Below are positions 1-11,311 of a stretch of DNA of 11,311 bases, piece after piece. A program made the translations under genes and the position numbers. Location: the NCBI GenBank assembly GCA_039024555.1, contig JBCCQQ010000107.1, positions 1-11,311 on the forward strand, read 5' to 3'. This DNA is from Cyanobacteria bacterium P01_D01_bin.156. GTDB lineage: Bacteria; Cyanobacteriota; Cyanobacteriia; Phormidesmidales; Phormidesmidaceae. The notes under the pieces were generated by a model that saw only the letters and a list, made by a program, of their open reading frames with translations, did not search any database and had not been told where the DNA came from. Position 1 is the stretch's first letter. The number at the start of each line of letters is the position of its first letter.

Positions 1-36
1 CTTCTCTAGATAGCTTTGGTAGATTGACGGTATCAT
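1..36 (-). CDS. First 12 codons of a putative IS4-family transposase (partial)
   Basis: Hand translation: ATG ATA CCG TCA ATC TAC CAA AGC TAT CTA GAG AAG. Open to the window edge, only 12 aa visible. Confidence 0.5.
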   Translation of the reverse strand, partial: MIPSIYQSYLEK

Positions 37-140
37 AGGGCGTGATAGGTCGTGTTCGTAAAACTAGCCTATCTTTTTTTATCTACCCATTCTTAACCAC
101 TGAATTTATAAGGCTTGCAGCAGTTGTGTAACCCCGTCAG
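1..140 (-). mobile_element. Probable left end of an IS4-family insertion sequence, continuing beyond the window edge
   Basis: Minus-strand ATG at 36 reads MIPSIYQSYLEK to the edge, resembling the M(L/I)PxFYQxxL N-terminus of cyanobacterial IS4 transposases (recalled, not searched). CTGACGGGGTTACACA (140-125) resembles their terminal inverted repeat. The adjacent gene remnant begins right after 140. Confidence 0.55.
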
Positions 141-349: not shown

Positions 350-509
350 GCCTTATATAAGGACTTTAAGGAACACTTTCACATGGGGCAGCTAAGCTTG
401 TTTACACCCTGCCAGTCTCTACGATTTCCTTACAGGCTTCTCACCCGAATTCATTAAACCCGATAAAACCAAACAATCTCGTAGAGCCACAAGCCAACTG
501 AGCTTATTC

Positions 510-727
510 CTAGACTTTGTAACCCCTTGGCGTAATCATACGACCCTGATGCAAAAACGTTCGGGAATTGCCGATAAGCACCACGGTGAGCATATCAATG
601 GTGGTCACACCCACCTCCTCCAACGTGAGACAGCGGACTGACTCTCCTGAACGGTAGAGAGAACGCGCGATCCACAATCGGAGTCTCAGCCAAACAATGC
701 CGCTGCATAATCTCCAAAGCAGTCTCA
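510..727 (-). pseudogene. cobJ 3'-end copy A (218 bp, about the last 71 codons, 1-nt insertion near 673)
   Basis: Aligns with 2100-2316. 510-672 vs 2100-2262 has 13 mismatches in 163 nt (11 synonymous). 674-727 vs 2263-2316 has 12 mismatches in 54 nt (ETALEIMQRHCLAETPIV vs EIALEILRRHRLGKTPVA). Confidence 0.95.
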
Positions 728-955
728 TGCCGCACTTACCGAGGCCACTAGACGATGTTCGCGATCAGCTGCGAATTCCAGACAAGCCCTGATATCAGTT
801 TCTACTAACTCTGGAAAGTCATCAATAATTTCATCCGTAGACATACCTGCGGCTAGCCAGCCTAAAACATCGTAGACTGTAATCCGCATCCGCCGGATGC
901 AAGGTTTTCCACTCCGTTTATCTGGTTCGATAGTGATGATACTGCGATAGCTCAT
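725..955 (-). CDS. DUF433 (COG2442) family putative antitoxin, VapB45-like, 76 aa
   Basis: Characteristic ITIEPDKRSGKPCIRRMRITVYDVLGWLAAGMS-DEIIDDFPEL-DIRACLEFAA pattern. ATG start, typical length. Confidence 0.92.
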   Translation of the reverse strand: MSYRSIITIEPDKRSGKPCIRRMRITVYDVLGWLAAGMSTDEIIDDFPELVETDIRACLEFAADREHRLVASVSAA

Positions 956-1067
956 AGTGTATGTGTGTCCAGCATTTTATACCTGCATAAGTTTAAAGCA
1001 GGCTAATACCTTGCTGCAACGGACGGGCGTAGGAGCACTCCCTTGTGTAAACCAGCCGAGCTTACGC

Positions 1068-1173
1068 CTAGACTTTGTAACCCCTGGGCGTAATCATGCG
1101 ACCCTGATGCAAAAACGTGCGCGAATTGCCGATCAGCACCACGGTGAGCATATCGATAGTCGTCACATCCACC
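1068..1173 (-). pseudogene. cobJ 3'-end copy B (106 bp, VDVTTIDMLTVVLIGNSRTFLHQGRMITPRGYKV*)
   Basis: Aligns with 2100-2205 with 7 mismatches in 106 nt (6 synonymous, 1 K/R). No start codon within the copied segment. Confidence 0.95.
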
Positions 1174-1333
1174 CATAGAATCGCGCACTGGGCATGACTG
1201 AGGCTACTGATGTAGGCTTTAGTCATGGCTCGCACAGGGCTAGAGGATGCGTGTAACGTTTAGCCTATACCGTTTGAGCTTTTTTACCCATTGAAACCCT
1301 TTTCATACAGTCTCTAACTACGGAGAGTAACCC

Positions 1334-1612
1334 ATGCAAATAACCCTCGAACTTCCTGATGATCTGGTTCAACATTTGAGCCCTAACCAGATGGCTCGTG
1401 AAATTGTCGAAGCACTAGCTGTACACGCCTATCAAACTGAAAAAATTACTCATGCTCAAGTAGGGAGTGTCTTAGGGTTACCTTCGCGTTGGGCAGTAGA
1501 TAGCTTTCTCAAGGAAAACAATGCTAATTTACATTACGATGAAGCGGATTTAGAGTGCGATCGTGAAACCCTCCGTCAATTGCGCATTCAACATTCGAAG
1601 AGTACCTCATGA
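1334..1612 (+). CDS. UPF0175 (COG2886) family putative antitoxin, 92 aa
   Basis: MQITLELPD N-terminus and ALAVHAYQTEKITHAQVGSVLGLPSRWAVDSFLKE...YDEADLECD pattern. GGAG at 1322-1325. ATGA overlap with the downstream PIN gene. Confidence 0.88.
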   Translation: MQITLELPDDLVQHLSPNQMAREIVEALAVHAYQTEKITHAQVGSVLGLPSRWAVDSFLKENNANLHYDEADLECDRETLRQLRIQHSKSTS

Positions 1613-2073
1613 TCGTTGTTGCTGACACTTCACCGATTAACTACTTGCTGCTAATCGACCAGATTGATCTACTCCATCACTTATTTCGAGAGATTATCAT
1701 TCCCGATGCGGTACGAGATGAAATGATTGATCCCGGTGCCCCCGTTGTTCTTCAGCAATGGATTGATAACTCTCCTGATTGGATTAAATTACAAGCCGTA
1801 TCTGTCACAGATAAGAGTTTGAGTACCCTCGATCCAGGAGAGCAAGCTGCCATTACGCTAGCTCAAACCCTACCAGCAGATCTGCTCATCATTGATGAAA
1901 GGTTGGGAAGGCGTGCTGCAAGTAGTTTAGGAGTTCCTATTATTGGTACTCTGGGAATATTAAATGATGCTGCAAATCAAGGGTTGATAAATCTTGCAGA
2001 GGCCATTGACCGTTTGCAAAAAACGAATTTCCGCGTCTCTCGTCGTATTATTCAAACATTGTTAGAAAGTTAA
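1609..2073 (+). CDS. DUF3368 (COG2405) PIN-domain putative toxin, 154 aa
   Basis: MIVVADTSPINYL, IPDAVRDE, LDPGEQAAI, LLIIDERLGRR, IIGTLGIL and NFRVS motifs. The PIN acidic residues look intact. Confidence 0.92.
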   Translation: MIVVADTSPINYLLLIDQIDLLHHLFREIIIPDAVRDEMIDPGAPVVLQQWIDNSPDWIKLQAVSVTDKSLSTLDPGEQAAITLAQTLPADLLIIDERLGRRAASSLGVPIIGTLGILNDAANQGLINLAEAIDRLQKTNFRVSRRIIQTLLES

Positions 2074-2099
2074 GAGCGGTCTCTTCCAAGCCGACAATT

Positions 2100-3971
2100 C
2101 TAGACTCTGTAACCCCTAGGCGTAATCATGCGACCCTGATGCAAAAACGTGCGCGAATTGCCAATAAGCACCACGGTAAGCATATCGATGGTGGTCACAT
2201 CCACCTCCTCCAACGTGAGACAGCGGACTGATTCACCTGAACGATAGAGAGAACGTGCGATCGCAACCGGCGTCTTCCCCAAACGATGCCGCCGCAAAAT
2301 CTCCAGCGCAATCTCAATCCCCCGAGTACGAGTCTTCGAACGCGGATTATACAACGCCACCACAAAATCTCCCTGAGCCGCCGCCGCCAAACGCTTCTCA
2401 ATCACCTCCCACGGCACCAACAAATCCGACAGAGAAATCGCACAAAAATCATGCATCAATGGGGCACCCACCCGGGCCGCCACCGCCTGCAGTGCCGTAA
2501 TCCCCGGAAACGCAGAAACACCCGGTGTCTGACCATCCCAGCCCCGCTGCACCAGGCATTCCATCACCAGTCCCCCCATACCATAAATGCCACAGTCGCC
2601 GGAGGACACCATACCCACAGTTAACCCCCGTTGTGCCAGGGCCACAGCTCGCTCCGCCCGCTGGACTTCCTGAGTGATTTTGCTAGTCTCAATCACCTGG
2701 TTGGGATGAAACAGAGGCCGCAACAAATCTAGATAGAGGCCATAGCCAATGACAACATCACAGTCCAGGAGGGCCGCACGAGCAGCAGCGGTGAGCTGGC
2801 CTAGATCACCAGGTCCCGACCCAATCAGATACAAGTGGCCGGGTCGGGGATTATATTCCTGAGCAGCGCGGGCAACAGCAATGGTGCAGGCTCCGTCACC
2901 CTTAAAAACTTGTTTCGTAATCACTAGTGCCTGACTTTGGGATGCCAGCAGCGCAGCGGCTTCTGCGACGGACGGTGTGCCCACAGCCTGAGCAACAACA
3001 TCGGATGGGTTAGGCACCGATGGCTCGGCTAGTTGGGCCGCGCTAAAAAATCGAAGCGGCCATTGGTACTGCTCTGCCAACGCTTGAAAAGCAACTTCAT
3101 CCTGCTTGAGGTCAATGGAGGCGATACCAGCGATGGATTGCCAGGCCAGGTTTTGATCCCGTAACACCTGCTGAATACTGGCCTCAATTAACTCTGTTGA
3201 TGTCCCCCGTTCACAGCCCAACCCAACCCACAGCGTACGAGGATGCCAGCACACCTCTGGGGTCTGCTCTTCTGAATTTTGAGTAGGAGGTAGCTGATCT
3301 GAAATCCACAGTCGCGCAGAGCCCTCTAGGTCCGAGGCTGCAGGGGCTTGATCTACAAAACAAAAAGGAGACTCTTCACGCAACATTTGTCGCCACAAAG
3401 ACTCACCACAGGTCTGGTGAACCGAGATTGGCTGTCGCTGCGCCAGAGCAGACGCCACCGCCGTCCAATTGCCCTCTCCCCGTTGCCACCCGTAGGGCTT
3501 TCCCAACAGATCCAAAGCTGGTAGCTGTTGCCCTTCAGAGGCTGACATAACCACCGGTTCCGCTCCCAATAGGGCCGCACATTGTCGAGTTAGGGCATCG
3601 GCTCCCCCCTGGTGTCCTCCACTCACGCTAACGACAAACTTGCCCATATCATCAATGGCCACCACCCCTGGGTCCTGGTGTTTGTTGTTAAGTAACGGTG
3701 CAATCAACCGCACCACCGCCCCCACTGGCAAGAAAAATATTAGCTGTGTCGCTCGGCCCCAGCATTCTGACACCACAGAAGCGACAGACCCATCGTATTT
3801 ATAGATATCAAGGCTGACCGAGGTATCTATTAGAGTATCTTCCCTGGTCCATAATTCTAAAGGTTGTAGACTATCCCAGAGTTGCAGACTTTGCTGACAG
3901 CCCGCCAGGGTGGGAGCAATCATCAAAATCTTAGAGTCAGGCTTTGCAAAAGACTTAGAAGCAATAGTCAT
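2100..3971 (-). CDS. cobJ: CbiG-CobJ/CbiH fusion: cobalt-precorrin-5A hydrolase plus precorrin-3B C17-methyltransferase
   Basis: CbiG motifs (GAVVRLIAPLL-KHQDPGVV, SGGHQGGAD, GLGCERG, VGTPSVAEAAAL), then CbiH motifs (GSGPG, VSSGDCGIYGM, PGITA, GAPLMHDFCAISLSD, ALYNPRS, MITPRGY). ATG at 3971 preferred over the ORF-track start at 3983. Confidence 0.95.
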   Translation of the reverse strand: MTIASKSFAKPDSKILMIAPTLAGCQQSLQLWDSLQPLELWTREDTLIDTSVSLDIYKYDGSVASVVSECWGRATQLIFFLPVGAVVRLIAPLLNNKHQDPGVVAIDDMGKFVVSVSGGHQGGADALTRQCAALLGAEPVVMSASEGQQLPALDLLGKPYGWQRGEGNWTAVASALAQRQPISVHQTCGESLWRQMLREESPFCFVDQAPAASDLEGSARLWISDQLPPTQNSEEQTPEVCWHPRTLWVGLGCERGTSTELIEASIQQVLRDQNLAWQSIAGIASIDLKQDEVAFQALAEQYQWPLRFFSAAQLAEPSVPNPSDVVAQAVGTPSVAEAAALLASQSQALVITKQVFKGDGACTIAVARAAQEYNPRPGHLYLIGSGPGDLGQLTAAARAALLDCDVVIGYGLYLDLLRPLFHPNQVIETSKITQEVQRAERAVALAQRGLTVGMVSSGDCGIYGMGGLVMECLVQRGWDGQTPGVSAFPGITALQAVAARVGAPLMHDFCAISLSDLLVPWEVIEKRLAAAAQGDFVVALYNPRSKTRTRGIEIALEILRRHRLGKTPVAIARSLYRSGESVRCLTLEEVDVTTIDMLTVVLIGNSRTFLHQGRMITPRGYRV

Positions 3972-4698
3972 GGCGGCGCACAATCAAAATAGAAAAATAA
4001 GGGGGGTTATAGTCGGCCAGATTCACCAGGCTGGAATATTGTTTCTCCTCTAGTGAACCCACTCGCTCCACCAAACTGGCCAGTTCTAGAAGTCCTTTTT
4101 CTTTTAGTGTGTGCCATACCTGACCGAACACGGATGACACCTTCATCAAGACAACAACATCGGCCCACTCCAAGGCATGGGTGAGTTCAGACACGTCATA
4201 CAGAGCAGGCAGGATAGCAATTTTCTCTGATCCTAAAGACAGAGGCCGATTGAGGGCCGCCATCGCTGCTAAGGGAGAACACACTCCAGGTACAGTGGTA
4301 ATTTTTATAGCAGGGGCCAAACGATGCACTGCCTGGGCTACATAGCTAAAAGTGCTGTATAGACTGGCATCCCCCTCCGTGATAAACGCCACATTCTGCC
4401 CCTGGGCCAACAGAGGCACCAGTGTTTCTCCCGCTGCCGCCCAGGCCTGCTGTAGCTGCACCGGATCGCGCACAAAGGGCAGATCCAAGGGCAAGATCGT
4501 TTGCTCAGGCCGTAAATGAGATTTGACAATACTATAGGCCATACCAGGCTCTCCCTGTCTATTCTGGGGACAGGCCACCACATCGACGGTTTGTAAAATT
4601 CGCAGCCCTTTTAGGGTGAGCAATTCACTATCTCCAGGACCGACGCTAATTCCCCATAACCGCCCCCGATCATGTATCAGTAACTCACTGGATGCCAT
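3955..4698 (-). CDS. cobI: Precorrin-2 / cobalt-factor II C20-methyltransferase (CobI/CbiL)
   Basis: GISVGPGDSELLTLKG, FITEGDASLYSTFSY, VPGVCS, VVLMKV and PYFS motifs. ATG at 4698 is preceded by AAGGAG. Confidence 0.93.
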   Translation of the reverse strand: MASSELLIHDRGRLWGISVGPGDSELLTLKGLRILQTVDVVACPQNRQGEPGMAYSIVKSHLRPEQTILPLDLPFVRDPVQLQQAWAAAGETLVPLLAQGQNVAFITEGDASLYSTFSYVAQAVHRLAPAIKITTVPGVCSPLAAMAALNRPLSLGSEKIAILPALYDVSELTHALEWADVVVLMKVSSVFGQVWHTLKEKGLLELASLVERVGSLEEKQYSSLVNLADYNPPYFSILIVRRHDYCF

Positions 4699-5965
4699 GG
4701 CCTTCTCCTTGAGCTGCAACAGGTTGAGAGGCCTGTAACAAAATCACAGGGTTTAAGGGAACAAAACGGGTGGCCCCTGCCAAGGTGGCGGAGCGGGAGA
4801 TATTGACCTGCAATAGCTTTACATCCCAGCCGTTATCTTGTAGCTGTTGCTTGGCCAGCATACAGGTTTCGAGGGTGGCAAAGTTGGCGACAATGACTCC
4901 ATTGGGTTGGATGCGATCGCAACACACCTCTAAAATCTCTGGCATCGCCTTACCACCTCCACCAATCACGATCCGATCGGGGTATGGCAAAGACTCAAGC
5001 GCCGCTGGAGCAACACCTCGGAGAGGTGAAATGTGAGCCGTATCAAAGCGACGACAGTTTTTTTCGAGCAGGGTGAGCCCCGCTGCAGTTTTCTCAATGG
5101 CATAGATACGGGCATCGGGGACCAGACGTGCAATCTCGATAGAAATGGAGCCGGTTCCAGCTCCCACATCCCACACTGTAATCTTTGGCCGTAATCTCAG
5201 CAGGGACAGGGATAATGCCCGCACTTCTTGCTTTGTAATTAAACCAGGCTGATCGGGAAAGGTGTGAAAGTCTTGATCAGCAATGCCAAAGAAGGGCTGG
5301 GGCATCTGTGGGCTTAGACTCTGTGCTTCTAGCACGACAACATTCGGGCTGGGGAACGAATGGGTTATGGCCTCTTCTATGGCAATTGCCTGGATAGTCT
5401 CCTCAGCGGCTCCCAGATGGCTACATACGGTCATACGGTACTGGACGGGTGGGCGGACATCTCGAATCAATCGAGCAATCTCTCCAGGTGTATGGACAAA
5501 ATCAGTTAGAACTGCCAAGGGAGACTTTCCTTGTTTAAGGGCTTGCTCTAGGTGAGCGGGCTGGCGACCGTGGACACTGATGATGGTGGCTGACTGCCAG
5601 GGAATTCCCAGACGGTTAAAGGTCAGCTGGACAGAACTGACATGGGGATAAAACCGAAGACATTGGCGATCGAAGTGTTCGGTTAGTAAGCGACCCAGAC
5701 CAAAAAAAAGTGGATCTCCACTAGCCAGGACCACCATCGATTTCTGTTGCAGAATATCCGCAATTTGCTCAATCCAAGCAACAATATCGCCCTCTAGGGG
5801 CAATGGGCGAGCTGGATAAATAGCTACAGTTCGTAAATGGGCTTTGCTGCCTGCAATGACTTCAGCTTTTTCTAAACAAGCTAAAGCATCAGGGGTGAGA
5901 CTCTGGAGTCCGTTTAACCCTAACCCAATGACGTGCAATAGGTTTTTAGGACAAGATTGCTTCAC
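4685..5965 (-). CDS. cbiE: Bifunctional CbiE-CbiT (CobL-like) C5/C15-methyltransferase (decarboxylating)
   Basis: VIGLG, VVLASGDPLFFGLG and SVHGR (CbiE). LITKQEVR, WDVGAGTGSISIE and PDRIVIGG (CbiT). GTG start. Confidence 0.93.
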   Translation of the reverse strand: MKQSCPKNLLHVIGLGLNGLQSLTPDALACLEKAEVIAGSKAHLRTVAIYPARPLPLEGDIVAWIEQIADILQQKSMVVLASGDPLFFGLGRLLTEHFDRQCLRFYPHVSSVQLTFNRLGIPWQSATIISVHGRQPAHLEQALKQGKSPLAVLTDFVHTPGEIARLIRDVRPPVQYRMTVCSHLGAAEETIQAIAIEEAITHSFPSPNVVVLEAQSLSPQMPQPFFGIADQDFHTFPDQPGLITKQEVRALSLSLLRLRPKITVWDVGAGTGSISIEIARLVPDARIYAIEKTAAGLTLLEKNCRRFDTAHISPLRGVAPAALESLPYPDRIVIGGGGKAMPEILEVCCDRIQPNGVIVANFATLETCMLAKQQLQDNGWDVKLLQVNISRSATLAGATRFVPLNPVILLQASQPVAAQGEGHGIQ

Positions 5966-6019
5966 GCCTGAGAGCTGTTAAACAAAATAGGATGCATACG
6001 AAGGACTTTTATACGCTCT

Positions 6020-6979
6020 TTAGGGTACCTGCCAAGCCCGCTCATGGTAATTCTTCTCTTTAGGATAGAGGTCGGGAATGCCGTGATATAACGTTTGGCC
6101 TTCAGGATGTTCATGGTTATGCCCATGTTCGTGATTGTGGTCGTGATGGTGCCCGTGATGGCCATGGCCATGGGCGCTGACCGCCTGGCGAAACTTACAG
6201 GTGTAGCAGTTCATGGAGACTTGACCAGCTTGGGCTTCTTGCTCGCGATCGCGAATTAACTCAAACAAAATCGGATCAGCACCAATCACGGATAGGCTCT
6301 GCATCTCTATGTCAGGATGAGCTGCCTGCTCGTGCTCAATAATAGTTTGAATCCGCTTCGCTAGCACCCCAGTAAACAGCAGGTGAGGAATCACAATAAT
6401 CCGCTCTGGATTCCATGCCCGCGCGCGCTCAAAACCTCGTTCCATACGCGGGTGAGTAATACCGGTAAAACACACCTCTAGATCCTGGTATCCACTGCCT
6501 TCCCACAGCATCCGCGCCAGCTTATACACATCGCCATTGGCATCTGGGTCTGACGCACCTCGCCCCACAAACACCAGTACCGTTTTCTCACGAGGCACTT
6601 TACTCTCTTTGTCTGCCTGCTCCAAACGCTTTTGCCACAGCTCCAACCATCGTAATGACACGCCAAAATGGCGACCATAGTTTAGCTTGAGCTGGGGATG
6701 ACGTTGGACAGCTCGGTCTAGCTCATTGGTGACATCAAACTTACTATGGCGGGCCGCAAACAGTAGCACCGGTAGCACCGTGAGTTCGTGATAGCCCTGC
6801 TCAACACAGCTATCGATACCTGCCTGAATCAAGGGATCCGTCAGCTCTAAAAAGCAAGGTACTACTGGGCGGCTAGCATCATAAGTCTGAAACTGATGGG
6901 CAAAATCAAGAAATGCCTGACGCCCATTCGCATCACGAGTGCCATGGCCCAAAAGTAAAAGAGGGTGAGATTGACTCAT
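6020..6979 (-). CDS. cbiX: Sirohydrochlorin cobaltochelatase, long-form CbiX with His-rich tail
   Basis: [28 protein letters not shown] and [13 protein letters not shown] motifs, MNCYTCKFR Cys motif and His-rich C-terminus. ATG at 6979 ([10 protein letters not shown]) preferred over 7069. Confidence 0.92.
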
Positions 6980-7318
6980 GTCGTTATCGAGGCCCCTGGG
7001 CAATCCAGAGAGATAGATGTCAGTGGTTAACGTTAACACTTGTCGGCATCGAAGAAATAAGGAATCCACTATTTATTAAGGAGGCTTACTTTACACATTT
7101 TTTTATGTTTTGGAAACCTGTAAACTCTCATGGTCTGCCAGCATCAAATATCTTGTAGAGAAGTGCCATGTTAAGAAAATGGGCATTGCTGATCCCCGAG
7201 ATGACTTCAGCTGTGAGATACCGTCAAATAACAATGGTTCTAGATCGATTCAGCCCCTAAATCAGCAATCGCAAAAAATGTTATTTAACTAAAGGCCCTT
7301 TCCGAATAGTTTTACAGA

Positions 7319-8740
7319 ATGCCGATTCCCACACTTGTCATTGCTGGAACCCACAGTGGTGTGGGCAAAACGTCCATCGCCATTGGGTTAATGCGGGCGT
7401 TTACTAATCAGGGACTACAAGTACAGCCCTTTAAGGTGGGACCTGACTTTATTGACCCCAGCCACCATCGACAGGCAACGGGGCGGGTGTCTCATAATTT
7501 GGATGGATGGATGCTGAATCAGGCTCAAAATTGTCAAATTTTTGATCAAGCCTGTGAAGGGGCCGATCTGGCCATCGTTGAGGGGGTCATGGGCCTGTTT
7601 GACGGGTACGGCGCGGCATCTGAGGCGGGGAGTACGGCTGAAATGGCCAAGTGGCTGGGGGCATCAGTGCTGCTTGTGATTAATGCTCGCTCCTTGGCCC
7701 GCAGTGCGGCCGCCTTAATTGCCGGCTATAGCAACTTTGATTCAGATCTGACGGTGGCGGGGGTGATTTGCAACCAAATTGGCAGTGCGTCACACCTGGA
7801 GCGCATTTGTTCAGCGGTGAGACACACTGTCCGGGTACCTATTTTGGGCGGTATCCCTCGCACTGAACCGGTGAAAATCCCTGAACGTCATCTAGGACTC
7901 TGGCGAGCGGCGGAATTAACTGAGCTCGGCTATTTGGACACTCTGGCTCGACTGGTCACTGACAATCTGGATTTGCAAGCCTTAATAAACATTGCAAAAT
8001 CTAGATCACCCCGAGCGGTCGCCACGACTGAGCCAGATCGGAAAACAAATCGCCAAAAATGCTTGCCACCCTCCCCTAAAGTTCGCATTGGTATTGCTCA
8101 GGATCAGGCATTTTGTTTTTACTATGCCGTTAACCTAACCCTGTTAGAACAATTCGGTGCAGAACTCATTCCATTTTCTCCTTTAGAGGATACCTTACCT
8201 GAAAAATTAGACGGTCTCTATATTGGTGGGGGTTACCCTGAACTCCATGCAGAACAACTGGTCAAGAATCAGGAAATGCGGGATGCGATCGCACACTTCT
8301 GTCAAGCAGGACGTCCGGTTTATGCAGAATGTGGCGGCCTCATGTATCTTTCCCAGGGACTGCTAGAAAACGAGACCTATCCCTTTGTCGGCATTCTCCC
8401 CTTTTGGACAAAAATGGGAAACCGCGTCAAGCTCGGCTATCGTCAAGTAGACATGGTAGGCCCTTACAACGGCTTCCCAAACCAGGGAAAAATTCGCGGT
8501 CATCGGTTTCATTATTCAGATATTGTCGATGCTGAAGGCAATCTTCTAAAGATTGTCCCACCTTTCCCTGAGCATACCCAAAAAGAACAACTACAGTTCA
8601 ACTATCAATTGCAAGGCTGGAACAACTATCAAAGCTGGGAAGGATATCAGATTTACAACGTTCTAGCCAGCTACGTCCATCTACACTTTGGCAGTAATCC
8701 CACCTTTGCCCAAAGGTTTGTTCAGTACTGCAGATCTTAA
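7319..8740 (+). CDS. cobB: Cobyrinate a,c-diamide synthase (CbiA/CobB)
   Basis: GTHSGVGKT P-loop, PFKVGPDFIDP, VEGVMGLFDG, IPERHLGL, AFCFYY, GGGYPE, YAECGGLMYL and SYVHLHF motifs. Confidence 0.96.
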   Translation: MPIPTLVIAGTHSGVGKTSIAIGLMRAFTNQGLQVQPFKVGPDFIDPSHHRQATGRVSHNLDGWMLNQAQNCQIFDQACEGADLAIVEGVMGLFDGYGAASEAGSTAEMAKWLGASVLLVINARSLARSAAALIAGYSNFDSDLTVAGVICNQIGSASHLERICSAVRHTVRVPILGGIPRTEPVKIPERHLGLWRAAELTELGYLDTLARLVTDNLDLQALINIAKSRSPRAVATTEPDRKTNRQKCLPPSPKVRIGIAQDQAFCFYYAVNLTLLEQFGAELIPFSPLEDTLPEKLDGLYIGGGYPELHAEQLVKNQEMRDAIAHFCQAGRPVYAECGGLMYLSQGLLENETYPFVGILPFWTKMGNRVKLGYRQVDMVGPYNGFPNQGKIRGHRFHYSDIVDAEGNLLKIVPPFPEHTQKEQLQFNYQLQGWNNYQSWEGYQIYNVLASYVHLHFGSNPTFAQRFVQYCRS

Positions 8741-8797
8741 TCTCTATAACCACGGTTCTCGCTCCTAAGATCACCAATGTCAATCCCGTCGAGTAAA

Positions 8798-8842
8798 CAA
8801 AAAGAAAGCATGGTTGCTGCTTTGACTCAAAACAGCAACCAT
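8798..8842 (-). terminator. Intrinsic terminator downstream of cobW
   Basis: Minus strand reads ATGGTTGCTG-T-TTTG-agt-CAAA-G-CAGCAACCAT followed by GCTTTCTTTTTG. The stem's single mismatch is a U.G wobble only on the minus strand. Lies between the convergent cobB and cobW. Confidence 0.75.
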
Positions 8843-8878
8843 AGTTCCATCGCTATAAAACTTGTCCACTGACAAGAC

Positions 8879-9919
8879 CTATGCCGCCGCTGCCATCGTC
8901 TGGGCAATAGTCTCTTTATCTAGATGAGAGCCAATCACCACCAACCGGGTCTGACGAGCTTCATCCACTTGCCAGGCACGATCATAAAAGTGATCGAATC
9001 GTTGCCCTACCCCCTGCAAAACCAGGCGCATCCTTTTATTCGGCACAGATACAAAACCTTTTATTCGGTAAATTTCTTGCTGTTGTACCAACGATTGTAA
9101 ACGTTTCACCAGAACAGATGGCTCAAACATCTCGTCTAATTCAATATAAACTGACTCTAGATGATCGTCATGCTCGTGTTCTTCTTCATGATCATGATGA
9201 CTATGACGACTATCCAGATCATCTTCAACCGCTGCATTAAAGCCCAGCAAAATATCTGGATTAATTTCACCTTGATGACAGGGAACAACCTTAACGCCGG
9301 TAGGAGCTTCCTGCTGCAGCCATTGCTGCACCCGCTGACTACTCTCTTTTGAGAGCATATCGGTCTTAGTCAGCAATACCATATCGGCACAGGCTAACTG
9401 ATCCTCAAACAGCTCCTCAATCGGAGTCTCATGATCCAACGAATCATCGGCCTGTCTTTGAGCTTCTAGCGCTTCTAAATCACCAACAATCTGACCATGC
9501 GATAGGGCTTCACCATCTACCACGGTCACCACACCATCCACGGTCGCTCCTGTGCGAATTTCAGGCCAACGAAATGCTTGCACCAGTGGCTTTGGTAAAG
9601 CTAACCCTGATGTTTCAATGACAATACAATCAATGTCTTCCCTGCGCTTTAGCAGCGTTTGCATAGTGGGTAAAAACTCTTCTTGAACGGTGCAGCACAG
9701 ACAGCCATTAGCTAACTCTAGAATGTTGGTGCCAGGAGTCTCGTCCTCATCGCAGACTTGACAAGATTTAAGGATTTCACCATCAATACCAACTTCGCCA
9801 AACTCATTGACTAGCACAGCAATACGTCGTCCCTGATTGTTTTGCAACAGATGACGAACCAACGTAGTTTTGCCCGAGCCTAGAAACCCGGTAACTACGG
9901 TAACAGGAATTTTATGCAT
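8879..9919 (-). CDS. cobW: Cobalamin biosynthesis metallochaperone GTPase CobW (COG0523)
   Basis: GFLGSGKTT, VNEFGEVGIDG, ELANGCLCC (CxCC), IETSGLALPKPL, His-rich HSHHDHEEEHEHDDH and YRIKG motifs. RBS GAGGA just upstream. Confidence 0.96.
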   Translation of the reverse strand: MHKIPVTVVTGFLGSGKTTLVRHLLQNNQGRRIAVLVNEFGEVGIDGEILKSCQVCDEDETPGTNILELANGCLCCTVQEEFLPTMQTLLKRREDIDCIVIETSGLALPKPLVQAFRWPEIRTGATVDGVVTVVDGEALSHGQIVGDLEALEAQRQADDSLDHETPIEELFEDQLACADMVLLTKTDMLSKESSQRVQQWLQQEAPTGVKVVPCHQGEINPDILLGFNAAVEDDLDSRHSHHDHEEEHEHDDHLESVYIELDEMFEPSVLVKRLQSLVQQQEIYRIKGFVSVPNKRMRLVLQGVGQRFDHFYDRAWQVDEARQTRLVVIGSHLDKETIAQTMAAAA

Positions 9920-10059
9920 AATCCTCTTCAGACTTAATTTTTATAGTCAGCTTGCAAATTCAAGCAAGAAAAATCGATTCCATTTACGGCGTGGGTGGCG
10001 CATTTGTATTAACGCCGTCAATGGTGAAACTCGCAAATCGTAAACTTAAGATTGCATGG

Positions 10060-10266
10060 GAAATGAATTAGCCCAATTACCGAATGGGCCAACTCTGAGA
10101 AAAAGCCTTCAACAAGCGTATTCTCTGTTTACCCTCCCATAGCATGCTGTGCCAGGACAGGCGTCGTAGTGAAGAGAAACGCTATGGGCGCAAATCGCAT
10201 AAGCTTGAATGCGCCAAACACCGAGACAACCCTGAAACGCTTCAAGGCAAAAAAATATGACCTCAT
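10060..10266 (-). pseudogene. hupE: Decayed 5' fragment of a HupE/UreJ-family cobalt/nickel transporter
   Basis: Hand translation from ATG 10266: MRSYFFALKRFRVVSVFGAFKLMRFAPIAFLFTTTPVLAQHAMGG*TENTLVEGFFSELAHSVIGLIHF. This resembles a signal peptide plus the HupE AHHxMGG...EGFLSGLAHPVIGLDH motif. In-frame TAA at 10131-10129, and similarity is lost after about 10060. Confidence 0.8.
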
Positions 10267-10420
10267 CTGTACCTCGCAGATCAGTGAAACAGCAGGTTAA
10301 TCATCGGCGGGCATTCTGACTTAGAGGCATCACACCTCATTCACAGCTGCGGGACAGCGGCAGACTTGCACTGCACTTTCCCCGTTTCCTCCAGCGGCTG
10401 CTTTCCGCAAGAACCGATGA
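10265..10420 (-). promoter_or_regulatory. Cobalamin (B12) riboswitch: aptamer 10420-10301 plus RBS hairpin 10281-10265
   Basis: Minus strand: TCATCGGTTC...GGAAACGGGGAAAG...GTGCAAGTC...CGCTGTCCCGCAGCTGTGA...AGTCAGAATGCCCGCCGATGA, with the B12 box and a TCATCGG/CCGATGA P1 stem. Downstream hairpin ATCTG-CGAGGTA-CAGAT overlaps the ATG at 10266. Confidence 0.95.
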
Positions 10421-10432
10421 CAAAGTAACCTC

Positions 10433-10441
10433 AATCTAGCA
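10433..10441 (-). promoter_or_regulatory. Candidate extended -10 promoter element for the riboswitch transcript
   Basis: TGcTAGATT (TGn plus TAnnnT) ends 12 nt before the P1 stem, a plausible spacing. No clear -35. Confidence 0.45.
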
Positions 10442-10792
10442 TCTTCACATTCGCTTTGAGTATTACTGTTTTCTATCTCAATAACTTAATTCATGATTGA
10501 GAGTTGACTTATCCCTGAAATAACGCCTGATAATCTACTGGAGTTGAGATATATAATCCCCAGTTAGGTGAGAGCGAAACTAACTCCATGCTTGCTTGAA
10601 CCACGGACTCATTCGCATGTCAGGCCAAGTATCTGAGGATTTATCAGTCTCAGCATTCAAGCCTATTTGACTATTAGGCGTAATTTATGGCTAATTTGAG
10701 CCCGACTAGGCTTGCTTGTAGAGATATCTAACGAACACCACATTAGGTGTAACACTATAGATGTATATCAGACGTTGTCAGCGATAGGTTCT

Positions 10793-11242
10793 ATGCAAAT
10801 TTGGGTCGATGCAGATGCATGTCCGAATGTCATTAAGGAGATTCTGTACAGAGCTGCTAAACGGTTACAGATTCAGCTAACGTTGGTCGCTAATACACCT
10901 ATCCAAATTCCTGCATCACCTCACATTGATTCAGTGCTCGTGCGATCAGGATTAGATGTAGCAGACAACCACATCGTAAAACAGATGACATCCGGAGACC
11001 TGGTTATTACGGCTGATATTCCTTTAGCCGCAAATGTAATCGAACAGGGTGGAACTGCACTAAATCCCAGGGGCGAATTTTATGATGCAGGCAATATCCG
11101 AGAGCGTCTATCAATGCGGAATTTTATGGAAACTCTGCGCAATAGTGGAGTAGAAACAGGGGGGCCGCCTCCTTTGAATCATCGAGATCGTGAGGCATTT
11201 GCGAACCAGCTTGATCGATTTCTGCGCAAACATATAGATTAA
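10793..11242 (+). CDS. yaiI: YaiI/YqxD (UPF0178) family protein, 149 aa
   Basis: [40 protein letters not shown] and GGPPP...FANQLDR motifs. ATG at 10793 preferred over TTG at 10712. Confidence 0.93.
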
Positions 11243-11311
11243 GTGACCTTTACAGAGAAACCGAGTGATCGGTGTTGCACGCAACGCAGTAGCACTTATA
11301 TCACTTCACCA

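What the first reader, a model, noticed from the sequence alone, without database searches (positions are those of the whole stretch)
510..2316. Serial cassette array at the cobJ 3' end: three cobJ tails alternating with toxin-antitoxin cargo
Seen, reading downstream on the minus strand: functional cobJ end (stop at 2100), UPF0175/DUF3368 pair, cobJ tail B (106 bp), DUF433, cobJ tail A (218 bp), then a further accessory gene. All tails are direct repeats ending at the TAG. Known: integrative elements that target gene 3' ends carry a replacement end and displace the old one. Inference: these units are only about 1030 and 560 bp, no recombinase is visible, and the tail lengths differ. That suggests small [cobJ tail + downstream TA module] units are repeatedly added by single-crossover or homology-anchored recombination. 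The result would be an integron-like array that uses a housekeeping gene end as its attachment site.
Basis: partly seen in the sequence, partly recalled or inferred. Interest (0 to 1): 0.9.

Follow-up and report, generated by a model that had tools for sequence, protein, structure and literature searches.

The report
Toxin cassettes stacked behind gene tails
In this cyanobacterium small predicted toxin-antitoxin cassettes, most of which look like former integron cassettes, are stacked behind a vitamin B12 gene with a spare copy of the gene's end between them, relatives carry different stacks, and the stacking likely happens by ordinary recombination that uses the gene end as an anchor.

Summary
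Confirmed: the cbiG-cobJ gene is followed by two displaced copies of its 3' end (106 nt, 93%; 218 nt, 88%). A predicted UPF0175/DUF3368 TA pair and an orphan DUF433 antitoxin separate them. Relatives carry 0, 1 or 3 tails with reshuffled cargo, and empty sites exist.

The tails are not integron-like recombination sites. Both junctions vary, several lie at microhomologies (4 of 13 at HIP1), and the same layout occurs at ctaB and tex.

The cargo is largely ex-integron. Different attC-like sites abut one point 160-163 nt behind the cobJ stop in four related loci. Three cargo modules sit beside attC sites elsewhere and a fourth keeps half of one. The genome has three integron integrases, none nearby.

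Best model (inferred): integrase docks cassettes behind cobJ, and deletions remove attC. [cobJ end + cassette] units from relatives are then added by homology-anchored, microhomology-closed recombination, and the array erodes.

This is a serial, TA-cargo variant of the known 'insertion with long target duplication'. The scan has noted similar arrays on other DNA (rumA, actin, mutase; HIP1 junctions in another cyanobacterium).

The parts
2100..3983 (-). Functional cbiG-cobJ fusion gene (precorrin-3B C17-methyltransferase at the C-terminus); its 3' end is the anchor
2257..2264 (.). HIP1 octamer, the only one in the last 400 nt of cobJ; start point of two independent tail types in relatives
1609..2073 (+). 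DUF3368 PIN-family predicted toxin, intact, convergent with cobJ
   Evidence: family role from PMC5499597 passages
1334..1612 (+). UPF0175 predicted antitoxin; a 74% homologous pair in G024 is followed by a full attC
1189..1318 (-). Left end and first codons of an IS4/5-type (DUF4096) transposon, fused to tail B
1068..1173 (-). cobJ tail B, 106 nt, 93% to the gene, reading frame intact
1029..1067 (-). Copy of the post-stop flank. An X1 contig joins 1029 directly to the distal flank at 468, which would be an allele without the DUF433 unit
   Evidence: table 5c
1002..1028 (+). Remnant (about one third) of an attC site. Weak alone (4.4 bits) but aligns with the complete attC upstream of DUF433 in L082, G008 and G002
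725..955 (-). DUF433 predicted antitoxin, orphan
716..728 (-). First four codons of the DUF5615 toxin gene, joined to tail A at a near-perfect microhomology of about 11 nt
510..727 (-). cobJ tail A, 218 nt (510-672 at 92%; 673-727 degenerate)
365..509 (-). Original post-stop flank. It follows cobJ directly in tail-free alleles (G015, G016, L087) and follows the last tail in G007, G012 and L082; in four loci it ends at an attC-like site
1..140 (.). Repeated element at the contig end (also at 8 other contig ends); the array region may continue beyond it

Best explanation
The DNA behind cobJ is a strain-variable stack of small predicted toxin-antitoxin modules, each followed by a displaced copy of the cobJ end, and it likely grew in two stages: integron-type docking first, then homology-anchored additive recombination. 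Stage 1 (inferred): an integron integrase acting in trans inserts cassettes at a site 160-163 nt behind the stop, pointing towards cobJ. Stage 2 (deletion products shown): deletions remove the attC and most of the spacer, locking a cassette against the stop. Stage 3 (inferred): DNA from a relative carrying [cobJ end + cassette] recombines into cobJ by homology. Its far end is closed at a short microhomology inside the cobJ 3' region, either directly or after circularisation and a single crossover. cobJ stays intact, the old end is displaced as a tail, and resident cassettes are pushed distally. HIP1 is often that microhomology because it is so abundant. Stage 4 (shown by comparison): tails then serve as further exchange points, and toxins are lost by truncation or deletion while IS and intron insertions accumulate. 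Addiction would favour events that add to a resident TA pair over events that delete it (untested).
For: Copy number: 11 of 22 genus genomes carry this cobJ lineage; 4 of those 11 have tails (G000 two, G007 one, G012 three, G014 at least one). Tail-free alleles G015, G016 and L087 are followed by the same flank as the last tail elsewhere. The same modules occur in different orders in G012, G014, G007:C525, L082, L083 and L086. G014 and L082 are 98.7% identical over 1357 nt but switch to different flanks at the end of the tail. Tails look like pieces of functional alleles: 73 synonymous versus 25 non-synonymous codon differences over 9 tails, 25% synonymous expected, no stops in the in-frame 3' parts tested. 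None of the six tails of G000, G007 and G012 is uniquely closest to its own genome's gene; tail A ties. Junction microhomologies are shown with both parents for tail A (about 11 nt), G012 tail 1 (11 nt, HIP1 x HIP1) and ctaB (10 nt, HIP1 x HIP1). A profile trained on 15 attC-like sites elsewhere in G000 hits the cobJ loci of G007 (E 2.5e-17) and G012 (E 2.8e-16), partial sites in G014 and L082, and sites beside the same cargo in G024, G008, G002, G010 and G021. Four different attC-like segments (52-70% alike) start 160-163 nt after the stop behind flanks that are 81-91% alike. Three integron integrases lie on other contigs and none in the cob loci tested. ComEC and DprA are present. Precedent: one-ended homology gave 109-950 bp duplications in 56 of 60 E. 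coli clones (PMC3240628, passages).
Against: No event was observed; everything rests on comparison of draft genomes. The test for the chimeric tails predicted by circle-plus-single-crossover was not significant in 6 of 6 pairs (p 0.10-0.60), so the route of stage 3 is unresolved. Tail-downstream cases (6 genes) barely exceed tail-upstream cases (5 genes) in the genome scan. Only 2 of the 4 attC-like segments at the docking point score with the profile; L082 folds well (6 of 300 shuffles) and L087 is inconclusive. The window itself keeps only a weak attC remnant. The G007 tail starts within 1 nt of a conserved cassette boundary, which hints at integrase action rather than microhomology. The synonymous excess could also come from repeated gene conversion. 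The ctaB and tex loci show tails without attC (0 hits in 10 loci), so stage 1 is not needed for tails.
Confidence: 0.58

Rival explanations
1. The integron integrase itself makes the mobile unit: it excises a circle between a cassette boundary and a secondary site inside cobJ, the circle integrates by a single crossover through the tail, and later deletions blur the ends.
For: The G007 tail begins within 1 nt of the cassette boundary conserved in G021, G005, G004 and G050. Integrases are in the genome. attG secondary sites are described (PMC12901181, passages).
Against: The junction is one base off the expected crossover product and the cobJ site lacks the AAC triplet. Other junctions lie about 130 nt inside a cassette, inside DUF5615, or at HIP1. 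ctaB and tex tails have no attC.
Confidence: 0.15
2. The units are decayed remnants of larger integrase-bearing islands that target the cobJ 3' end in tandem (CIME-type accretion).
For: The geometry matches attL/attR accretion at protein-gene ends (PMC7563491, passages). Many junctions are demonstrably secondary deletions. TA erosion after mobile-element loss is described (PMC13617665, abstract and passages).
Against: No full-size element or distant tail was found among 173 genomes of the order. No integrase was found in the cob loci tested. Both ends of the repeat vary. The ctaB insert carries a piece of another housekeeping gene, tex.
Confidence: 0.12
3. Within-genome tandem duplication at microhomologies creates the tails; cargo is swapped later by two-ended homologous recombination between strains.
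For: L083 and L086 share about 60 nt of non-cobJ cargo sequence in front of a tail. Unequal exchange between tails would grow arrays without illegitimate joins.
Against: No array examined holds two full copies of one cargo, and tails differ by 4-12% from the resident gene with mainly synonymous changes.
Confidence: 0.12
4. Assembly artefact from mixed strains.
For: Run X1 holds several alleles, including a different cobJ-to-DUF3368 junction, and no listed contig spans the array.
Against: Independent assemblies give multi-tail arrays. X1 contigs bridge flank-tail A, DUF433-tail B and tail B-IS-UPF0175.
Confidence: 0.03

Closest known systems
Insertion with long target duplication of restriction-modification genes (PMC2853133; passages, section 15 and Discussion read)
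   Same: Selfish cargo between long, variable direct repeats that often span a stop codon; no mobility gene; empty site in relatives; mostly naturally competent hosts; a Microcystis case is listed.
   Different: Here the cargo is predicted TA modules of integron origin, insertions are serial (up to three tails) and reshuffled, and repeats are 4-12% diverged. No DNA-cutting cargo is present at cobJ in the window to supply the break proposed there.
CALIN, clusters of attC sites lacking an integrase (PMC4889954; passages)
   Same: attC-bounded cassettes far from intI, integrase elsewhere in the genome, IS nearby; secondary-site integration is a proposed origin.
   Different: Most attC sites are deleted and gene tails separate the cassettes. 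The window has less than one attC.
Additive flexible genomic islands (PMC4898812; passages)
   Same: Cassette number and order vary between strains; a repeat of the target gene marks each addition.
   Different: The target is a protein-coding B12 gene, units are 0.5-1.5 kb, and the repeat ends are not fixed.
CIME/microCIME accretion at fda, rpsI, rpmG (PMC7563491; passages)
   Same: Tandem units at a protein-gene 3' end, most decayed ones distal.
   Different: Those depend on a site-specific integrase and fixed att sites; none was found here.
Homology-facilitated illegitimate recombination and circularisation plus single crossover (PMC3240628; passages)
   Same: One homologous end, 3-10 nt microhomology at the other; 109-950 bp duplications seen experimentally.
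   Different: Laboratory events in E. coli; classical HFIR usually deletes recipient DNA rather than leaving a tail.

Membership tests
Insertion with long target duplication | Direct repeat longer than 30 bp flanking an insert under 20 kb | tested here: met
   106 and 218 nt repeats around 926 and 340 nt of cargo
Insertion with long target duplication | Empty site with a single copy in a relative | tested here: met
   G015, G016, L087; other species or bins, not the same strain group
Insertion with long target duplication | No mobility gene in the unit; variable repeat length | tested here: met
   Only a 130-nt IS remnant; lengths 106-374 nt
Insertion with long target duplication | Cargo is a restriction-modification system (as defined in PMC2853133) | tested here: not met
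   Cargo is predicted TA
Integron | intI next to the array | tested here: not met
   Integrases on C49, C92, C102 only; no tblastn hit in the cob loci. The window ends at a contig break.
Integron | attI site and Pc promoter | not tested
   No model available; the 160-nt flank was not characterised as attI
CALIN | At least two attC sites in a cluster | tested here: inconclusive
   Not met in the window (one weak remnant). L082 has one full and one half profile hit plus a folded third site. Home-made profile, not IntegronFinder.
Integron cassette (origin of cargo) | Same module bounded by attC elsewhere | tested here: met
   UPF0175/DUF3368 types in G024, G021, G050, G109; DUF433 in G008, G002; third cargo in G010; half attC after MazF in G014/L082
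ICE/IME/CIME accretion | Fixed crossover point in the target gene | tested here: not met
   Seven different tail starts
ICE/IME/CIME accretion | Cognate integrase element at the site in some strain | tested here: not met
   Not found in the loci fetched or among 173 genomes searched; drafts are incomplete
Type II toxin-antitoxin system | Toxicity and rescue by the partner | not testable with these tools
   Family-level prediction only

The most novel reading that the evidence does not exclude
An integron-to-chromosome relay. Cassettes dock behind a housekeeping gene, shed their attC, adopt the gene's tail as a new mobility handle and then spread and stack between species by transformation, with HIP1 serving as a universal joint for the free end. 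That would give HIP1 a concrete role in gene acquisition.
Probability: 0.3. Interest if true: 0.8.

Novelty: new variant of a known kind. Interest (0 to 1): 0.6.

Why it matters
It shows how TA islets that lack mobility genes can be gained, stacked and shuffled. It links two processes usually treated apart: integron cassette capture and recombinase-free insertion with long target duplication. It also gives natural junctions with both parents known that fall on HIP1, whose function is a long-open question. The calculation here shows that abundance alone would make HIP1 the commonest 10-nt joint in this gene end (45% of matches), which is a testable null for any enzymatic model. I found no paper on such an array in the library searched; subscription papers and supplements were not seen.

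Tried and rejected
1. Chimerism test for circle-plus-single-crossover: suggestive by eye in G007, not significant in 6 of 6 pairs.
2. REP/hairpin role for the post-stop flank: folds no better than shuffles (z -0.14 to 1.42) and is not a repeat family in G000.
3. Riboswitch in the flank: Rfam finds only the cobalamin riboswitch at 10289-10433.
4. A strict attC regex failed its positive control. A looser scan found sites near the integrases but none in the arrays. Only the profile search detected them; the negative control on the cob genes gave one hit at E 0.38.
5. Special HIP1 enzymology is not required. 4 of 13 junctions (tallied by eye, after seeing the data) gives P 0.003 at a 5% positional null but P 0.12 at 15%. 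HIP1 supplies 13.5% of 8-mer and 45% of 10-mer matches to the cobJ end.
6. cobJ tails outside the genus: none identified among 173 genomes. G042's two long matches were not examined, and G168's short frame is a split gene.
7. ctaB tails in relatives: 0 of 18 loci.
8. The second read-laying (G012 array) showed pieces of the cargo in four runs but nothing that spans units.
9. Tail-versus-head asymmetry in G000 is weak (6 tail-downstream, 2 head-upstream, 5 tail-upstream, 2 head-downstream, 2 middle).
Full report
OBSERVATION. The window is contig C107 of genome G000. It carries a cobalamin gene cluster whose last gene is a cbiG-cobJ fusion at 2100-3983 on the minus strand. Genome-wide BLASTN finds exactly two more copies of its 3' end, at 1068-1173 (106 nt, 93.4%) and 510-727 (218 nt, 88.1%), both ending at the TAG. 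Between them lie UPF0175 plus DUF3368 (plus strand) and DUF433. These families are predicted, not proven, TA components (PMC5499597, passages). Comparison adds three missed parts. A 130-nt IS4/5-type end is fused to tail B. The first four codons of DUF5615 are fused to tail A, so DUF433 is an orphan. A short attC remnant lies at 1002-1028. Record titles label this cobJ lineage as cyanobacterial.

VARIATION IN RELATIVES. Of 22 genus genomes, 11 carry this cobJ lineage. Tails occur in 4 of the 11: G000 two, G007 one (374 nt), G012 three (167, 222, 163 nt) and G014 at least one (233 nt; the contig starts inside the array). G016 and G010 have only 136 and 502 nt of downstream sequence. In G015, G016 and metagenome locus L087 the stop is followed directly by the flank that follows the last tail in G000, G007, G012 and L082, so these are empty alleles and the distal tail marks the oldest position. 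The same modules recur in different orders: DUF433 before a MazF pair (G014, L082), before a tail (G000) or before a third cargo (G007:C525); the UPF0175/DUF3368 pair after the gene (G000) or after a tail (L083). G014 and L082 are 98.7% identical over 1357 nt yet continue into different flanks at the tail end. Run X1 holds a junction that skips the DUF433 unit and a different junction in front of DUF3368. Among 173 genomes of the order, 149 have a cobJ end, but tails were identified only in this genus (6 matches were not listed and diverged tails could be missed).

WHAT THE TAILS ARE. Over the in-frame 3' parts of nine tails, differences from the nearest functional allele are 73 synonymous to 25 non-synonymous codons, against 25% synonymous expected, with no stops. 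None of the six tails of G000, G007 and G012 is uniquely closest to its own genome's gene. They are therefore pieces of working alleles, or are refreshed by conversion. Tail starts take seven different positions, and cargo starts range from 6 nt before to about 39 nt after the stop, which argues against one site-specific crossover. Where both parents are known, joins are microhomologies: about 11 nt for tail A and 11 nt including HIP1 for G012 tail 1. A third tail type also starts at the cobJ HIP1. Some joins are probably later deletions. A test for the chimeric pattern expected from a circle integrating by single crossover was not significant.

NOT ONLY cobJ. A scan of 4220 ORFs of at least 150 aa in G000 found displaced downstream tails at 6 genes, against 5, 2, 2 and 2 for the other configurations. 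At ctaB, a HepT/nucleotidyltransferase pair, a Uma2 gene and a piece of tex lie between the gene and a 149-nt tail (90.6%), and the join is a 10-nt match containing HIP1 in both tex and ctaB. None of 18 ctaB loci in relatives has a tail. Degenerate tex tails occur in G003 and G015. By eye, 4 of 13 junctions overlap HIP1. G000 has 2558 HIP1 sites, and the single site in the cobJ end accounts for 13.5% of 8-mer and 45% of 10-mer matches to the genome, so abundance alone can explain this. HIP1-linked recombination is reported in the laboratory (PMC4390886 and PMC13756078, passages; bioRxiv 10.1101/2024.09.10.611283, abstract).

THE CARGO IS EX-INTEGRON. G000 has three integron integrases on other contigs and none in the cob loci tested. 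A profile built from 15 attC-like sites outside C107 and C91 hits G007 and G012 strongly just behind the last tail's flank, and partially in G014 and L082. In G007, G012, L082 and L087 four different attC-like segments (52-70% alike) start 160-163 nt after the stop, behind flanks 81-91% alike; two score with the profile, one folds well, one is inconclusive. All are oriented so that the array points towards cobJ (strand assignment from recalled attC motifs). The UPF0175/DUF3368, DUF433 and third cargo types lie beside attC sites at other loci. A group II intron in G007:C525 sits at the DUF433-proximal end of that attC, as group IIC-attC introns do (PMC3001079, passages); I did not classify the intron. 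Next to the tails, most of these attC sites have been deleted. The G007 tail starts within 1 nt of a cassette boundary conserved in four genomes. No attC was found at ctaB or tex.

MECHANISM. Shown: structure, variability, empty alleles, microhomology joins, attC association, erosion (toxin truncations, a split DUF3368 in G012). Inferred: integrase docking behind cobJ; loss of attC; addition of [cobJ end + cassette] from relatives by one homologous and one microhomology join; later exchange between tails. ComEC and DprA are present. One-ended homology produced 109-950 bp duplications in E. coli (PMC3240628, passages). Small TA islets spreading by recombination in flanking genes are proposed in PMC13617665 (abstract, passages) and quantified for other species in PMC12359135 (abstract). 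Addiction as the reason for adding rather than replacing is untested. Confidence 0.58; rivals are integrase-made circles (0.15), decayed integrase islands (0.12), local duplication (0.12) and artefact (0.03).

COMPARISON AND VERDICT. It works like insertion with long target duplication (PMC2853133; I was led to this paper by scan note e1-9899280 and read sections 15 and 18), but with TA cargo and in series. It resembles additive islands, CIME accretion and CALINs without meeting their defining features in the window. Library searches found no description of this array; supplements were not read. Earlier scan notes report similar arrays on other DNA; they are unchecked and are not counted as support. 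Verdict: real, a new variant of a known kind, interest 0.6.

Noticed in passing
G000:C91:1-3058 (L111): ctaB followed by a HepT/nucleotidyltransferase pair, Uma2, an internally deleted piece of tex and a 149-nt ctaB tail; the join is HIP1 x HIP1.
   Followed up: yes
L118 and L120 (G003:C192, G015:C55); L117, L119, L122: The region behind tex is a TA and defence hotspot across the genus, with degenerate tex tails in two genomes.
   Followed up: partly
G000:C117, C120, C32 (two cases): Further displaced gene tails (561, 91, 164 and 86 nt) with inserted genes between; the C120 repeat starts at a HIP1 on the cargo side and ends just past a HIP1 in both copies.
   Followed up: partly
window 510-728 and 1068-1235: Both tails are in frame with a foreign start (DUF5615 and transposase), giving possible short chimeric peptides ending in the CobJ C-terminus; could be chance.
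   Followed up: no
window 2100-11311: This cob cluster type is found in only 11 of 22 genus genomes, and close versions occur in two other genera (G073, G144), suggesting the B12 cluster itself moves horizontally.
   Followed up: partly
G000:C49, C92, C102 and 15 scattered sites: Three integron integrases and dispersed single attC-like sites, many near contig ends.
   Followed up: partly
L098:946-2958 (G007:C525): Group II intron with a reverse transcriptase ORF inserted at the attC in front of DUF433.
   Followed up: partly
L162 about 2301-2390 (G021), also L163-L165: A conserved segment of about 88 nt lies between the UPF0175/DUF3368 cassette start and the next attC in G021 (similar start in G050); possibly an attI-derived piece.
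   Followed up: no
L031:8855-10800 (G012): An MvdD-type ATP-grasp gene with a small repetitive precursor-like ORF lies just behind the attC.
   Followed up: no
window 10289-10433 (-): Cobalamin riboswitch upstream of cobW (Rfam RF00174).
   Followed up: no
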